Assembly: GCA_030264375.1 (NCBI GenBank)
Contig: JASCQW010000156.1
Coordinates: forward strand, 12,262,158-12,326,157
Reading direction: 5' to 3'
DNA: 64,000 nt
Source of the DNA: Carcharhinus longimanus
Lineage: Eukaryota
Shown here: piece after piece, positions 1 to 54,000 of the stretch
Layout of the letters: the number at the start of each line of letters is the position of its first letter
Numbering within the stretch: position 1 is the first letter of the stretch
Made by a program: the position numbers

Positions 1-3000
1 TCTCTGGCCCTTTCTACCACTGGAAACTGTCTGGTTCTATCAACCCTGTTCTAATTCTTTTATGATTTTAAATACTTATGTTTTGTGGTTCCCAGAAGTT
101 TGAAATAATGACACTTTTAGACACAAATACTGGAGTTAACGTCAACTGTTATTCTTGATGCTCGCCATGTGGACAGTGAAATGATACTTTGTTTCTTTGG
201 AGTACTGACTGTAGTGCAATAGTAAGAGACATGTCGTTTTGGGTTTGCATGTACACAAGTGGTTAGGTTGATTGGCCATAACAAATTGCCCCTTAGTGTC
301 AGGGGGATTAGGGCTGTAAATATGTAGGGTTATGTGGATGGGATCTGGGGGGATTGTTGTTGGTGCAGGCTGGATGGGCCAAATGGCCTCCTTCAGCACT
401 GTAGTTTTTATGTGCATAACAATATACCTCCTACCTCTTTTCAAATAATATAACAATATATTTCTCTCTTTTAGAAAAATACTTCTCTGTATCAGTGCAA
501 CTATTCCAATCTTTTTTATTATGTCTAAATTAAAGAAGATTAACAATTGACTTTTATAATTAAACCAAATACCTTAACAGTCTTTTATAGCTTGTTTTCT
601 CATGAAAACTATTTACAGTATCACTTAGTTGGTAGGATGTTGTGCCGCCATTTCATGAATTTGGTTTTCTTTGCTCTCAGTGATTAGTTGGTGTGTTGTA
701 CTGGCAACGATGTACATGTTGGTCCTGGTGTTGTAAGAGTTGTACTTGATGTTGTGTCACTTGTTGGTGGTGCTGTTGATGTTGCCTCACACATCAGTAA
801 TGTTATTGGTGTTGATGATTACCTTTTCTGCTTTTCAGTTCAGGTGTAAGTCAAATATTCCTTCTCATTTATTCCCAGTTTCAGTCTCTCTTTGATGTAT
901 GACCTTGCTGGCTTCAGATTTTCAGGATTGAATCCTGTGCATATACAGTTTATCCTTTCAACAGCTCAGGCAGTGATTTAGTGTGCTTGCTGTAGTGTTG
1001 ATTTCTTTCTACCTGTGCATCAGTTGAGTTATTGTCTTACTTTTTCCTGGTCATTTAGAGGTTGTATCTTGCTTAGCAACACTGTTTCATATTTTCTGCC
1101 ATTGAATACTTCTGCAGGTGATTTCATGTCAGCCTTGAGAGGTGTAGCTCAAAGTGACAATGAAGCAAGGTTTGGGTCTTCCTTTGTCTCTCGACATTTC
1201 ATGAGGTTTCTCTTGACCATTTGAATGTATCTTTTTGTGAAACCTTGTTCCCTTGGGTTATTTAGTGATGAGGTTGAACCCATATTGATCAGCAGATAAT
1301 TCTTTAAATTCCTTGGAGGTGAACTGAGTTCCATTTACCACATTATTTTTTTCAAGAATTCTTTTCCTGGCAAACAGAACTTGTATAGCTGAGATGATTA
1401 TAGTAACTCTCAAATATTCACCTTTCTGATAAAAGGGATCTTTGAGTAATAGGCTGTTACAATGAGATACCATTGTGGATTGTATATGAATAAGGCAGCT
1501 CCTACAGTATTTCATGGTTTAGGTGGTACTTCAGTAACTATGATATCATCTTTCTGTTGTGTATTTCTATACTTCTGACATGCAATGATGTAGCCACCAA
1601 ACTATAAGAAAACTCTGCAGAGCACAGCAATACTGCAGGGGTTACTCTTAAGGTTTCAAACTTATGATTTCACTCTGAAATACAAGCCAAGGTGACAAAT
1701 ACCCGAAAGCAGATACCCTATCTCATTTGTCACTTTATGAGAGATATAAGATAAAAGATCTAAGGGATGAATCTTTACATCTAGTGAACATAACACCACT
1801 GAAATTGAGTCAAAATGGAGTTGAAACCAACAAGGAAGAATTTTAAATGCTGCCTCAGTATGTAATCAAAAGATAGCCTGACAAGTTGTAGCAAACACAA
1901 CCAACAACAAGGCACTAATGATCAATCAGAGATAACATCTCATTGGACAGTGATGCTCTTTGGCCTGATGCAGAATCACCGTGCACAAAATGATGCAGAG
2001 AGAACACCTCCTGAAAATATATGAAGGCCTTGGAGACTCTCAGTGCTAGATCAGCAGCATGCTGGCTGACCTTCACAAGGACATGAAATGAACATCATTG
2101 AACTCTCTTTCAATGTTGGCATATCTGGTCTCAGCTGATTTTAGAGCTTTGGATGTGAATGCTATAGGATTCCCCTCTTGGACCAAGGGCACTGCCAGAA
2201 AAATTAATTAGTGCCTGAGAAATAGGAGACGTGACTCGCAGCATTGTTGTTGGTGGACTTTGCAGTGCTGGATCCTCACTTGGTTTATTGCCACCAACTT
2301 CACCATCAACACAGCAATGGTTGATATATTCCCTGGCCAGCTGAATGGCTCTGTTCTTGAAATCCATGACAGCAGGGCAGTGCAGGGACCAGCGCTGGAG
2401 AGTGTGTTTCATGAGGCAGGGAGGGGGCAAGGGGGTGTACTGCTTTGAGGTGAGTGTCGGGAGACTGTTCAGGGAGAATGTTCAGGAGAGGTGTCCCATT
2501 TTTACTTTTTTGTATTGGGGCGACCTTTAAAAAAGGTGCCCCGATCTTTAATAATCTAGGTTGCTGGCAGGGCAGGCTCAATCAGAGTCGCCCCGCAAGT
2601 GTGACATTGCAGGACTTGTGCCTTGGATTTCTTTTTCAAAGATCCTAACAAAACATCAGAGAAGGCTGTCATTGGGCCTGGAGACTTCAACACCACTTTC
2701 CCCACCTGCTGCGATATCACGCATTAAAAAGATAGAATGCTGCCCTCAAATTTTTCTTTCTCTCTGGCATGAACTTGGGTTGATTTTTTTTCAATCTAAT
2801 TCAGCACTTATTTTGTTTACAATGCTCATGTAATACTCACAAACACCTGCTGCCACCACATTATGCCTTGTGGTTCTGAGAAATTCAAAATAATCTCACC
2901 TTTGGAAATAAATACTAAAGCTGACATCACTACAGCTATCCATGTGGGAGGTGGAATGATGCATTGCTGCTTTGGAAAATAGACTGTAATATTCTGAGTG

Positions 3001-51000: not shown

Positions 51001-54000
51001 TTATAATGTGAAATGATACATTTTAGCAGGATGAATAAAGAGAGGCACTGGAATGCAGTGCATTCCAAATCACAGGAACATACTGAGTAAGAAATGTTTC
51101 CTCATGTAGCCTCTGGTTCTTTTGCCAGTAGTCTTAAATTTGTGTCCTTTGGTTACTAATTCTTGGAAACATTGGCAGGATTTTCTAGCCATGCTTGCCC
51201 CAAGTTCGAAAAATCCCATCTAAGGTCAACAGACCTTTGCATCGTCCACCCTCCGGATCGCTACAGTTCCGTGATGGGCAGAATGGGAAAATGTCACCCA
51301 TTGTCTCCTTATTTACACTTTCAAAACCATTCATGATTCTGAACACCTCGATCAAATCTTCTCTTAATTTTCTTTGCTCTAAAAAAAACTAACCCATCTT
51401 CTCTATTTCCTCAAAATAACTGAGGCCCTCATCTCTGGTACCATTTTATTATGTCTCTTATGCCCTCGCTGCTCCAAGGGCTTGACATCTCCTGTTAATA
51501 AAGCCAGGCTTTTTGATAGCCTTCTAAGCTTCTCCTGCCACCTTCAAATAGTTGTGTACATGTACTCCCCGGTCTCTCAATTCACACACACTGTTTTAAA
51601 TGATACTATTTAGTTCATAATGCCTCTCCTTATTTTTACCGCTAAAATGTATCATTTCACATCATAAAATGAAACCTCTAAGAATTGCAACACTGGAATG
51701 TTGGGTACTCAGTGTTTGTCTTGGAGAACATCTGAGCTAAGGCCTCATTTGACATTCATGCATCCAACAGATGTTATTAGAGGAGAAATCCACTGTTGAT
51801 TATTTCAGTTGAGAGCAAGACTGTATGAGTCTGGCTATGATCGGATTGGGCAGCAGTTTTCCACCTTTCATGGTCAAATAGCCAGTTGACAATGTCTCAA
51901 CACAAAGCATAGCTAGTTTGACAATGTACTAGAGGACGACTGGTACNNNNNNNNNNNNNNNNNNNNNNNNNNNNNNNNNNNNNNNNNNNNNNNNNNNNNN
52001 NNNNNNNNNNNNNNNNNNNNNNNNNNNNNNNNNNNNNNNNNNNNNNNNNNNNNNNNNNNNNNGGGTGTTGAAGCTAATGCTTGGAATTAATAATTAGAAA
52101 ATTTAATACTCCTAATTCTACAGTAACAAATTGTAAGTTGTGCATATATAGGGAGTTTAACCATAGCAATGAATGTTAGATTGCCTTGTACAATGGTTTC
52201 AGCTGTTTCATGTCATTTGTTTGAGAATCAGCTCCTTGTGTAATGAATGGATAGCGGGGCTAGTATTGAAAGCAAAACAATGAATCAAAGGGATTTCTAC
52301 AAGTTGTAAACTTGTTTTGTGAAAGTTGATTGATAATACCGCTAAAACATTAGTTCGATTCCGTTCTGAAACAGTATTCAAAAGACAAACAGTGATTGAC
52401 AGAATTCACTTAGCGATTTCAAGAATTATACTTGGACAAATTTACTCCCTTCATGTCTTGAAGTGGTTGGCTGTGCCAGGCTACTGTCAGCACTCAGTCT
52501 GTAAGAGCTTTTTGGCTATTCTACCATGAAGTTAATTGTGCCTTCATCTTGTTTTCACACAATGCATTTAGGATTCACTGGAGAGCAATCAATGGGCTCA
52601 AATTCCAGAAAAATCAAAGGTTATTTTGCTTAGAAACTTCTGTTTTTTCATTTTCTTATTAAAATGAGAGATATTAATGTTGGAGGAAGAAATCACTTAG
52701 GGAATGGAACACTCCCTGCCTTAGACAACTAGTGCCAGAAGTAGGCTCCATCTAGTTAGGTGCAGCATAAGTTAGATACAGAAGGTAGTTCCCTTCAGTC
52801 TACCTCTGAAAGCTACCTCAGTTCCAGCCAGAAAGGAGTACCCCCACTTCATTAATGCAATGCTTTTATCCAGCGCTTGAACCAGTCACCTCCAGGCCCG
52901 TTTCAAATGGCAATGCCAATGAGGAAGGTTTTATATTATGGGCTGGATTTGTATATTGATCCCAGCGTTGAGTGTTTAATCCATCAAGTACCTGATGCAA
53001 AATTCTGAGAATTCAATTGTTGACCAAAACACTGCTTTGCTAGGAAGGGTCAGTGCAAATGCCTTTGCTGATTTTATGATTTCCCAACTCCAGTGTATTG
53101 ATATCAATGCAAATTACAAGACACCCAGATAAAGGAATTTTCTTCCAATTTCCTGTTTTCCAAAAGAACACTGTCTTCACAAATGAAGTGTCTGACAAAT
53201 CTTTTCGTGTTGGCTGTTAAAGAAGGAGCCACAAAACGTGTATACCATTTTTACCATGATGTGTTGACTCTTTGGTGCAATGCTAATGTGTCCTGCTTTT
53301 GTAAACACATTAGCATTTGTCAAATGTAATCTGTAGAATTGAGAGCCTCAGCATCCGTTTTTAGCACTGTGGAAATGAATGGATTTTGACTGAGTTAAAA
53401 TTTCACCATCTGTGATGAGATGAGATAGCATGACCATTTATTCAACTTTGAACCTGATAACCAAACTCTGTGTTTCTTACTCTTTAAAAAAAAAGATGAG
53501 ATGCGCATGCATGGAGCAAACTAGCTACCTGAAATTGCAATTGAGCCTATGTTCAGTTTTGTGAATGCCTGTTCAGATCAGCTTTTCTTTATTTTCTGCT
53601 ACTCTCCTGTTCAGAAAACCATCTGGTGTTTGACAGGGCACAAGGTGGCCACATGACAACAAAACCCTGAAGCAAGATGACCCTTTGTTCATTCAATATC
53701 CCCTCCTCCACAATCTCACCCCCCACAATCCCAGACACCCCACCCCTCACCCCAACCCCCACCACCAAACTGGGCTCCCTTAACCTGAAGCAGAGACCGA
53801 AAGAGAAAAATAGTGCAAATTTGGAATCCAGAACATCATAAGATAATGAGAAAGCTGATTACTTTTAATGCCAGTTTCCCCTTTGACTCATCAACCTCTC
53901 TTTCATGGTTTCTGGTTCTCAGCCTTCCTCGTCCTTGCTAGTTTATTTTAATTCCCTTTGGGTAATCCAACTCCTTGAGGAGTCAGAAACTACAATTCCA

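What the first reader, a model, noticed from the sequence alone, without database searches (positions are those of the whole stretch)
1583..51815. Recurrent short-range inverted rearrangements: a possible general mutational process in this genome
Four events of 0.2-0.5 kb occur in 64 kb: one inversion and three inverted duplications. All lie inside old retroelements, and all three duplications sit left of a source within ~1.6 kb. Inference: frequent fold-back/template-switch repair that leaves long hairpins, which mammalian genomes tend to lose. I cannot tell whether this is already described for elasmobranchs.
[Added by the scan's program, not by the reader: the finding's places include an assembly gap (unread letters, written N; its length is only estimated) at 9154 to 9163, 18978 to 19077, 21289 to 21388, 22539 to 22548, 37993 to 38022, 43414 to 43513. 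Whether the letters on both sides are continuous or in frame is not known: test that first.]
Basis: inference. Interest (0 to 1): 0.75.

Follow-up and report, generated by a model that had tools for sequence, protein, structure and literature searches.

The report
Old inverted copies inside decayed retroelements
Three nearby reverse-complement copies of LINE fragments and one probable small inversion in a gypsy-like remnant are real, old DNA-level rearrangements of a known template-switch kind, but one 64-kb window cannot show that they are unusually frequent in this genome.

Summary
The three inverted duplications exist as described. A: 43301-43784 against 44147-44588, 96% identical. B: 49916-50230 against 51487-51810, 93%. 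C: 50835-51047 against 51621-51815, 83%. B and C share one source. Only A touches a gap: 43414-43513 lies inside its left arm, and the two sides align collinearly to the right arm.

Each left-hand copy is a reverse-complement piece of a minus-strand CR1/L2-like LINE. It sits 0.36-1.26 kb downstream of its source, in the same or the next LINE. Copies share in-frame stop codons with the source. They lack LINE 3' ends, target-site duplications typical of transposons, and further copies in the window. So they are DNA-level events that happened after the LINEs had decayed.

The inversion (about 1519/1583 to 2100, gypsy-like pol) rests on sub-threshold evidence only.

The best explanation is switch-and-return template switching in replication or repair. 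This is the known four-point class, here about ten times larger than described.

"Frequent" and "general" are untested. There are three loci, the ages span 4-17% divergence, and short inverted repeats show no excess. Spacers of 362 nt or more make the hairpin-instability argument weak.

The parts
43301..43784 (+). Event A, left arm. It is the inverted copy, inserted into a minus-strand LINE. It contains the assembly gap 43414-43513.
   Evidence: Geometry: the distance between two LINE landmarks is 1958 nt here against 1094 nt in the neighbouring LINE, and 1257 nt once this arm and a SINE are subtracted.
43414..43513 (.). Assembly gap (100 N) inside the left arm of A. The two sides are collinear with the right arm, which has 58 nt opposite the gap.
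   Evidence: No letters were inferred for the gap.
43785..44146 (-). Spacer of A. It is the endonuclease part of a minus-strand LINE.
   Evidence: Local protein alignment to the endonuclease region of the LINE at 49300-49915 scores 57; 0 of 200 shuffles reach it. The tblastn hit at 44002-43925 has E=0.29.
44147..44588 (-). Event A, right arm. It is the presumed source, upstream of the spacer in LINE sense. Its own nature was not established.
   Evidence: No significant similarity to LINE endonuclease on either strand: 34-40 of 200 shuffles, and 171 of 200 for the N-terminal query, reach the score.
40700..44588 (-). Host LINE of event A: endonuclease in the spacer and reverse transcriptase at 42300-40900. 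It is interrupted by the left arm and by a SINE at 42707-42923. The 5' limit is not established (see the right-arm row).
   Evidence: Translations, with 8 in-frame stops in about 250 codons. Homology to the LINE at 37274-37871, E=2e-9. That LINE matches Pfam RVT_1 with E=1.9e-6, 28.2 bits against a cut-off of 29.6.
49916..50230 (+). Event B, copy 1. A 315-nt inverted copy of LINE ORF2 sequence, lying between two stretches that read as endonuclease of the left-hand minus-strand LINE.
   Evidence: The endonuclease reading of both flanks is by eye from the translations and is inferred, not tested.
50835..51047 (+). Event C, copy 2. The insert proper is about 50849-51047. It interrupts the C-terminal coding part of the same LINE that holds the source.
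   Evidence: A reference LINE protein (31950-32420, minus) matches 51397-51305 (E=3e-5) on one side of the insert and 50838-50773 (E=0.005) on the other.
50842..50848 (+). A 7-nt direct repeat, CTGGAAT, at the left side of copy 2. The second copy is at 51048-51054.
   Evidence: Read. The donor flank matches the target at 12 of 14 nt (50835-50848 against 51815-51802).
51048..51054 (+). Second copy of the 7-nt direct repeat CTGGAAT, at the right side of copy 2.
51487..51815 (-). Common source of copies 1 and 2. It is an ORF2 segment of the right-hand minus-strand LINE.
   Evidence: The reading frame is validated by protein alignment to the LINE at 41260-41150 (E=0.005).
50773..51946 (-). Right-hand LINE (reverse-transcriptase C-terminal part to the ORF2 end). 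It is split by copy 2 and runs into the gap 51947-52062.
47500..50400 (-). Left-hand LINE (endonuclease to reverse-transcriptase N-terminal part). It is split by copy 1 and carries a SINE at 48572-48699.
   Evidence: Translations, read by eye. Landmarks are located. Pfam found nothing at E<=1.
1583..2100 (+). Probable inverted segment of a gypsy-like pol remnant (RNase H C-part to integrase N-part, read on the plus strand). The left limit is uncertain, about 1519 to 1592.
   Evidence: Atlas lead for ORF 1679-1843. Motifs were recognised by eye from recall. No inverted duplicate is present: 1380-1700 against 2040-2400 scores below the shuffle mean.
2100..2180 (-). RNase H N-part of the gypsy-like pol remnant, on the minus strand.
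   Evidence: Pfam RT_RNaseH_2 E=0.003 and RT_RNaseH E=0.01, both below their cut-offs.
1261..1518 (-). Integrase-core-like ORF of the gypsy-like remnant, on the minus strand.
   Evidence: The best three named Atlas clusters carry rve, with scores 0.87-0.88, which the tool rates as a lead only. Pfam and PDB found nothing.
1583..1591 (.). A 9-nt perfect inverted repeat with 2092-2100 (CAATGATGT / ACATCATTG). It is a candidate junction homology of the inversion.
   Evidence: It is one of 8 short inverted pairs in 1.2 kb, so it could be chance. The Pfam RNase H alignment ends at 2100.

Best explanation
The three inverted duplications are old, DNA-level insertions. In each, 200-480 nt of an already decayed minus-strand LINE was copied in reverse complement. 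The copy was placed 0.36-1.26 kb downstream (in LINE sense; left on the plus strand), in the same LINE (A, C) or the adjacent one (B), and the target sequence continues on both sides.

The most likely mechanism is a switch-and-return template switch during replication or repair synthesis. The growing strand leaves its template, copies a nearby stretch of the complementary or nascent strand backwards, and returns close to where it left. The probable 0.5-kb inversion in the gypsy-like remnant is the in-place outcome of the same process.

Shown: existence, inverted orientation, sharp junctions, target continuity for C, and shared stop codons.
Inferred: target continuity for A and B, the direction of copying for A, the mechanism itself, and the link between the inversion and the duplications.
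For: 1. The arm pairs are far beyond chance (E=7e-38 to 2e-104). They are the only copies of these units in 64 kb (blastn with word size 7 and nhmmer). The four other non-SINE repeat pairs in the window lie 11-50 kb apart.
2. In the frame validated against another LINE, copies 1 and 3 share three in-frame stops. At the first of these, copy 2 has TAA where copies 1 and 3 have TGA. This fits serial copying from one decaying source.
3. The host LINE of A has 8 in-frame stops in about 250 codons, while its arms differ at only 14 of 384 nt. The duplication is therefore much younger than the LINE.
4. Copy 2 interrupts the LINE coding sequence, which resumes on the other side.
5. Junctions are sharp. 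C has a 7-nt duplication and a 12-of-14 donor/target match. A and B show 0-3 nt.
6. Neither copy reaches a LINE 3' end.
7. The four-point template-switch model yields both inverted repeats and in-place inversions (PMC5453318, passages).
Against: - Described short-range template switches are tens of nt long; these are about ten times longer.
- No outgroup or second assembly was available, so the ancestral state is inferred.
- A and B have blunt junctions, which end-joining capture of a fragment explains equally well.
- Copies 1 and 2 end at the same donor position although their ages differ. A random process does not predict this.
- The retroelement nature of the arms of A is not shown.
- The inversion rests on sub-threshold matches. 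The Atlas tool warns that an opposite frame over a real gene can score for that gene's family.
Confidence: 0.55

Rival explanations
1. Fragment capture at a double-strand break. A piece of nearby DNA, excised or newly synthesised, was ligated in reverse orientation by end joining, with no replicative switch-and-return.
For: The junctions of A and B are blunt, with 0-3 nt of homology and no duplication. The target sequence appears kept on both sides.
Against: The source is still in place in all three cases, so a copy was made, not a cut piece moved. Event C has a 7-nt duplication and a 12-of-14 donor/target match, which points to annealing. Consistent polarity and closeness to the source are not predicted.
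Confidence: 0.15
2. The copies arose during LINE retrotransposition, by twin priming or by snap-back of the second strand on itself, so the structures are born with the element.
For: All three copies are of upstream LINE sequence placed downstream in LINE sense. This is the polarity expected if the sense strand copies back on itself. All hosts are LINEs.
Against: Three stop codons are shared between copy and source, and the host LINE of A is far more decayed than its arms are diverged. This places the events after decay. The order sense-antisense-sense is not the twin-priming order. Copy 1 sits in a different LINE from its source. In cell assays an L2-clade LINE gave no 5' inversions (PMC4245944, passages).
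Confidence: 0.1
3. Independent insertions of fragments of one LINE family happen to lie near each other in opposite orientation.
For: The window is full of LINE fragments on both strands. Weak inverted and direct LINE pairs at 58-76% identity occur in similar numbers within 3 kb (4 weak inverted, 5 weak direct).
Against: The copies have neither the LINE 3' end nor a tail. They share stop codons with the source. Their identity (83-96%) is above most other local or distant pairs (58-84%; one 83-nt pair 50 kb apart reaches 92%). They are the only copies of these units in 64 kb. Three copies of one unit lie within 1.9 kb.
Confidence: 0.08
4. Assembly artefact: chimeric reads or wrongly joined contigs created the inverted copies.
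For: The assembly is gapped, with 10 N runs in 64 kb. One gap lies in an arm of A and another lies 131 nt from the source of B and C. Inverted chimeras are a known amplification artefact (PMC6218980, search listing only).
Against: The arms differ by 4%, 7% and 17%, whereas artefactual copies would be near-identical. The inner 271 nt of A and all of B and C lie in one gap-free stretch. The two arms of A have different outer flanks.
Confidence: 0.05
5. The pairs are terminal inverted repeats of non-autonomous DNA transposons or foldback elements.
For: A has long arms and a short loop: 1288 nt in all, with arms of about 440-480 nt.
Against: No target-site duplication flanks A or B. The loop of A and the arms of B and C are LINE coding sequence. 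No other copies are in the window.
Confidence: 0.03

Closest known systems
Short-range template-switch mutations (four-point model; PMC5453318 and PMC7954356, passages read)
   Same: A stretch is replaced or inserted as the reverse complement of nearby sequence, with a return to the original template. The process creates inverted repeats (type 3-2-1-4 / 1-4-3-2) or pure in-place inversions (type 1-3-2-4). The new repeats can form hairpins.
   Different: Described events are tens of nt long and lie very close to their source. Here the copied pieces are 200-480 nt and lie 0.36-1.26 kb away. In event C the return point precedes the leaving point by 7 nt, an order those authors did not observe. 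No ancestral sequence was available here.
Microinversions flanked by inverted repeats (PMC8755829, passages read)
   Same: An in-place inversion with a short perfect inverted repeat at its edges. In that study the flanks were 3-75 nt, with inner edges juxtaposed to the inversion. Here there is a 9-nt candidate pair.
   Different: Those inversions are 17-33 nt; this one is about 500 nt. Its left edge is not fixed, so the 9-nt repeat may be coincidental (8 such pairs in 1.2 kb).
Fold-back inversions / inverted duplications at broken ends (PMC10622511, PMC7467729, PMC3907307; search listings and abstract starts only)
   Same: Inverted copies made by DNA synthesis primed after a strand folds back on nearby sequence.
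   Different: Those events give large duplications with a short spacer and loss or rearrangement of the distal chromosome. Here the pieces are small insertions and both flanks are kept.
Twin-priming 5' inversion of L1 (described in PMC4245944, passages read)
   Same: An inverted LINE segment lies next to a direct one.
   Different: In twin priming the inverted part is the 5' end of the insert and is not a second copy. Here the order is sense, antisense, sense; the copy duplicates sequence that is still present; and the copy carries the source's stop codons.

Membership tests
Template-switch mutation (switch and return, four-point model) | The new segment is the reverse complement of nearby sequence on the same chromosome. 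| tested here: met
   The three pairs are 83-96% identical and lie 362-1256 nt apart.
Template-switch mutation (switch and return, four-point model) | Return to the original template: the sequence on both sides of the new segment is collinear. | tested here: met
   Met for C: a reference LINE protein aligns on both sides of the insert (translations). For A it is supported only by geometry. For B it was read by eye.
Template-switch mutation (switch and return, four-point model) | The ancestral state without the event is seen in an outgroup or second genome. | not testable with these tools
Template-switch mutation (switch and return, four-point model) | Scale as described: copied fragment of tens of nt, with the source within the same short neighbourhood. 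| tested here: not met
   The fragments are about 199, 315 and roughly 440-480 nt, at 0.36-1.26 kb.
Fold-back inverted duplication at a broken end | Arms joined through a short spacer set by a short inverted repeat, with distal sequence lost or rearranged. | tested here: not met
   The spacers are 362, 573 and 1256 nt. The flanks continue on both sides.
Twin-priming 5' inversion of a LINE | The inverted part forms the 5' end of one insert, comes from RNA upstream of the direct part, and dates from the time of insertion. | tested here: not met
   Sense sequence lies on both sides of the inverted piece. Three in-frame stops are shared with the source.
Independent LINE insertions | Each copy reaches the LINE 3' end and descends from a coding master. 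| tested here: not met
   Copies end inside ORF2, and copy 1 shares three stop codons with the source (copy 2 one).
DNA transposon with terminal inverted repeats / foldback element | A target-site duplication flanks the whole unit, and further copies have the same ends. | tested here: not met
   No flanking duplication at A or B. No further copies in 64 kb. Genome-wide copy number could not be tested.
Microinversion bounded by inverted repeats | Short inverted repeats whose inner edges touch the inversion breakpoints. | tested here: inconclusive
   The 9-nt perfect pair is at 1583-1591 / 2092-2100. The right edge agrees with the end of the Pfam alignment at 2100. The left breakpoint is not fixed.

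The most novel reading that the evidence does not exclude
This genome makes, or keeps, mid-sized (0.2-0.5 kb) switch-and-return inverted insertions at a rate well above other vertebrates. They have a fixed polarity relative to LINE orientation and recurrent donor end points. This would be a size class between the tens-of-nt template-switch mutations and kb-to-Mb complex rearrangements, perhaps tied to LINE sequence itself, for instance to pausing or nicking at particular LINE sites.
Probability: 0.12. Interest if true: 0.65.

Novelty: new member of a known kind. Interest (0 to 1): 0.3.

Why it matters
If such events were common, they would be an overlooked source of hairpin-forming DNA. They would also be a confounder for repeat annotation, because inverted LINE pieces would be scored as separate insertions. 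And they would give a direct read-out of template switching at a scale that is little documented. As it stands, the window gives four clean case studies with junctions, polarity and relative ages, and gives no rate.

Tried and rejected
- Pfam scans of stop-read-through frames around all events gave only sub-threshold RNase H hits, and nothing for the LINE parts.
- PDB sequence searches with the gypsy-like frames found no integrase.
- Rfam at gathering thresholds and ARAGORN found nothing in the window.
- A search for a second gypsy-like copy in the window, to map the inversion against, found none.
- Testing whether the inversion is really an inverted duplication gave no similarity between 1380-1700 and 2040-2400, at DNA or protein level.
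- Showing that the arms of A are LINE endonuclease gave non-significant results on either strand. The stretch left of the left arm is only weakly similar: 6 of 200 and 14 of 200 shuffles reach the score.
- A transposon reading was rejected for lack of target-site duplications.
- Twin priming was rejected on architecture and on the shared stop codons.
- Two literature searches for the phenomenon in sharks returned nothing on the subject among the rows listed (15 of 3,045 listed; 12 of 35 listed). Only titles and abstract starts were seen.

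
Full report
SCOPE AND LIMITS. I worked from the window alone.
The one open genome collection holds only bacteria and archaea, so I did not use it.
- I therefore could not check the genome-wide copy number of the repeated units, orthologous loci or a second assembly.
- I built no spliced gene model and searched no joined sequence.
- Supplementary files of papers were closed. The supplementary figures of PMC5453318, which show all event types, may bear on the comparison of sizes.

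GAPS FIRST.
- The window has ten N runs. Of the six inside the finding's span, only 43414-43513 touches an event, and it lies inside the left arm of pair A.
- The letters left of it (43301-43413) align to 44588-44476. The letters right of it (43514-43784) align to 44417-44147. Order and orientation agree. The right arm has 58 nt between those two stretches where the left arm has 100 N.
- The two sides are therefore consistent with one continuous inverted copy whose middle is unread. However, the outer 113 nt depend on the scaffold join.
- The inner 271 nt of A, its spacer, its right arm, and all of events B and C lie in one uninterrupted stretch, 43514-51946.
- The inversion near 1.6-2.1 kb is 7 kb from the nearest gap.
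- The common source of B and C ends 131 nt before the gap 51947-52062, so its upstream LINE context is cut off.

THE THREE INVERTED DUPLICATIONS ARE REAL.
- A: 110 of 113 and 260 of 271 nt identical, spacer 362 nt.
- B: 49916-50230 against 51810-51487. 93.3% of 315 columns match, with one 9-nt indel, and about 1.26 kb lies between the arms.
- C: 50835-51047 against 51815-51621, 83.1% of 213 columns, with 573 nt between the arms.
- E-values run from 7e-38 to 2e-104.
- B and C share their right arm, so there are three copies of one unit within 1.9 kb. Copies 1 and 2 are 83.4% alike and in direct orientation.
- A sensitive search (blastn with word size 7 at E<=1e-3, and nhmmer at E<=1) found no other copy of arm A, spacer A or the B/C unit in the window. 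The only other hit of note was a weak match of the B/C unit to another LINE at 41149-41223 (nhmmer E=0.0016).
- By contrast, the one clearly dispersed family (SINE-like, at least 8 copies) is 64-84% alike and scattered. The four other non-SINE pairs lie 11-50 kb apart.

WHAT THE PIECES ARE.
- No Pfam family reaches its cut-off near the events. The elements are badly decayed.
- Protein-level comparison inside the window shows LINEs.
  - The stretch 51946-51050 (minus strand) matches the ORF2 C-terminal parts of LINE fragments at 20.8, 29.3, 32.3 and 41.2 kb.
  - The 41-kb LINE is homologous to one at 37.3-37.9 kb (E=2e-9). That one matches Pfam RVT_1 at E=1.9e-6, just under its cut-off.
- Calling these LINEs CR1/L2-like rests on my recall of such elements and on no call.
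- The source of B and C is thus ORF2 sequence of a minus-strand LINE.
- Copy 2 interrupts that same LINE. A reference LINE protein (31950-32420, minus) aligns to 51397-51305 (E=3e-5) on one side of copy 2. Its later residues align to 50838-50773 (E=0.005) on the other side. The translations show the coding sequence stopping and resuming at the insert.
- Copy 1 lies between two stretches that I read by eye as the endonuclease of the next minus-strand LINE downstream (translations). This reading is inferred.
- For A, the spacer is LINE endonuclease on the minus strand. Its alignment to the endonuclease of the neighbouring LINE scores 57, and 0 of 200 shuffles reach that score. The reverse transcriptase of the same element follows at 42.3-40.9 kb.
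- The distance between two landmarks is 1094 nt in the neighbouring LINE and 1958 nt here. It falls to 1257 nt once the left arm and a SINE are subtracted. This favours the left arm as the inserted copy.
- The arms of A showed no significant similarity to LINE protein on either strand. 'Inside a retroelement' therefore holds for their position, not for their content.

THE EVENTS ARE DNA-LEVEL AND LATER THAN THE LINES.
- I used the reading frame fixed by the alignment to the 41-kb LINE. That LINE has sense codons at two of the three sites.
- In that frame, copies 1 and 3 share three in-frame stops. At the first of them copy 2 has TAA where the other two have TGA.
- That nested pattern fits one source that decayed step by step and was copied twice, first giving copy 2 and later copy 1. 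It agrees with the identities of 83% and 93%.
- The host LINE of A has 8 in-frame stops in about 250 codons, while its arms differ at 14 of 384 nt. My inference is that the LINE is several times older than the duplication.
- Neither copy reaches a LINE 3' end.

JUNCTIONS.
- All six junctions are sharp.
- C has a 7-nt direct repeat, CTGGAAT, at 50842-50848 and 51048-51054. The 14 nt of the donor flank match the target at 12 positions. This is the pattern expected if a copied end annealed back to the original template.
- A and B show at most 3 nt of possible homology and no flanking duplication.
- Copies 1 and 2 end at the same donor position within about 11 nt (51810-51821), although their ages differ. 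I have no explanation for this.

THE INVERSION.
- Minus strand 2100-2180 matches RNase H of LTR-element pol (E=0.003, below cut-off).
- The minus-strand ORF 1261-1518 resembles integrase core by language-model features (0.87-0.88, a lead only).
- The plus-strand ORF 1679-1843 between them resembles the RNase H / integrase-zinc region (0.91, with recognition under the tool's mark). The tool warns that an opposite frame can score for the same family.
- By eye I also recognise, from recall and not from a call, the usual motifs of the RNase H C-part and integrase N-part on the plus strand between about 1520 and 2100.
- The domain order minus, plus, minus, with the middle domains on the other strand and no domain present twice, is what an in-place inversion of about 0.5 kb gives.
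- A 9-nt perfect inverted repeat sits at 1583-1591 and 2092-2100. The Pfam alignment ends at 2100. But eight such short pairs occur in that 1.2 kb, and the left breakpoint could equally be near 1519.
- I rate the inversion as probable, not shown.

RIVALS.
- Independent insertions are unlikely, given the shared stops, the missing 3' ends, the clustering and the high identity.
- A retrotransposition-coupled origin is unlikely for four reasons. The first is the shared stops. The second is that the order is sense, antisense, sense. The third is that copy 1 is in another LINE than its source. The fourth is that an L2-clade LINE gave no 5' inversions in cell assays (PMC4245944, passages).
- A transposon with long terminal repeats is unlikely because there is no target-site duplication and the sequence is LINE coding sequence.
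- An assembly artefact is unlikely for arms that differ by 4-17% and lie within one contig. It remains possible for the outer part of A's left arm.
- Capture of a fragment by end joining cannot be separated from template switching for A and B.

IS IT A GENERAL PROCESS?
- The evidence is three loci in 64 kb, and two of the events share a donor. The divergences of 4%, 7% and 17% show that the events accumulated over a long time.
- Within 3 kb, at E<=1e-3 and 50 nt or more, there are 8 inverted alignments. Four of them are the events (A gives two). There are also 6 direct alignments. Among the weak pairs there is no bias.
- Outside the events, exact inverted repeats within 1 kb are not in excess over direct ones:

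| k | direct | inverted | shuffle mean, direct | shuffle mean, inverted |
|---|---|---|---|---|
| 12 | 21 | 10 | 4.0 | 2.5 |
| 14 | 8 | 1 | 0.4 | 0.3 |
| 16 | 3 | 0 | 0.1 | 0.1 |

- The window therefore gives no sign of pervasive small-scale template switching.
- The polarity is 3 of 3, with the copy downstream of the source in LINE sense, and all hosts are on the minus strand. This is suggestive but not significant. It would follow equally from a shared replication direction.
- One weak pair (40486-40682 / 42205-42406, 66%) has the same polarity.

HAIRPINS AND MAMMALS.
- Inverted Alu pairs are under-represented in the human genome (PMC3670932, passages).
- But in passages of PMC7999016, instability depends on long, similar arms and short spacers. 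Stalling in eukaryotic cells was seen at a 12-bp spacer and not at a 52-bp one.
- With spacers of 362-1256 nt and arms already 4-17% diverged, these pairs would not be expected to be strongly selected against anywhere.

COMPARISON AND VERDICT.
- The closest known process is the switch-and-return template switch of the four-point model (PMC5453318, passages; PMC7954356, passages). That model produces both inverted repeats and pure inversions. The events here match it in kind and differ in scale by about tenfold.
- I found no paper describing such events in sharks (listings only).
The mechanism class is plausible. The claim of an unusual, general process is untested.

Noticed in passing
261-404, 15066-15436, 17641-17988, 28293-28468, 38026-38335, 42707-42923, 48572-48699, 57090-57425: A dispersed SINE-like family of at least 8 copies, 64-84% alike, on both strands. 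Two copies sit inside the LINEs that host events A and B. Rfam at gathering thresholds and ARAGORN found no RNA gene in the window.
   Followed up: partly
51787-51821: Copies 1 and 2 end at the same donor position within about 11 nt, although they differ in age. A 15-nt quasi-palindrome lies just inside that point (read). This may be a recurrent switch point.
   Followed up: partly
40486-40682 and 42205-42406: A weak inverted pair (66% of 206 nt, E=8e-11). One arm is in the reverse-transcriptase-upstream part of the 41-kb LINE and the other is just past its 3' end. Its polarity matches the three events. It could be an older event or an unrelated LINE fragment.
   Followed up: no
38945-39028 / 40835-40918 and 45436-45520 / 46404-46494: Two more weak local inverted pairs (70% of 86 nt and 76% of 91 nt). 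Their nature was not examined.
   Followed up: no
5599-5679 and 55914-55996: An 83-nt inverted match at 92% identity, 50 kb apart. The right copy ends exactly at the gap 55997-56096.
   Followed up: no
8246-8818 (+): The longest ORF of the window (191 aa) has a weak PR-domain match (PRDM2_PR, E=0.0063, 16.7 bits against a cut-off of 27). It may be a gene fragment or chance.
   Followed up: no
76-242 and 2861-3014: A direct pair at 66% identity flanks the gypsy-like remnant. The two copies are too close together to be the LTRs of an intact element.
   Followed up: no
3123-3215 and 3219-3310: A tandem duplication of about 93 nt at 77% identity.
   Followed up: no
34001-36000: The most GC-rich stretch of the window (0.51 against about 0.40). 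The three ORFs of 130-135 aa in or beside it have no Pfam match at E<=0.01.
   Followed up: partly
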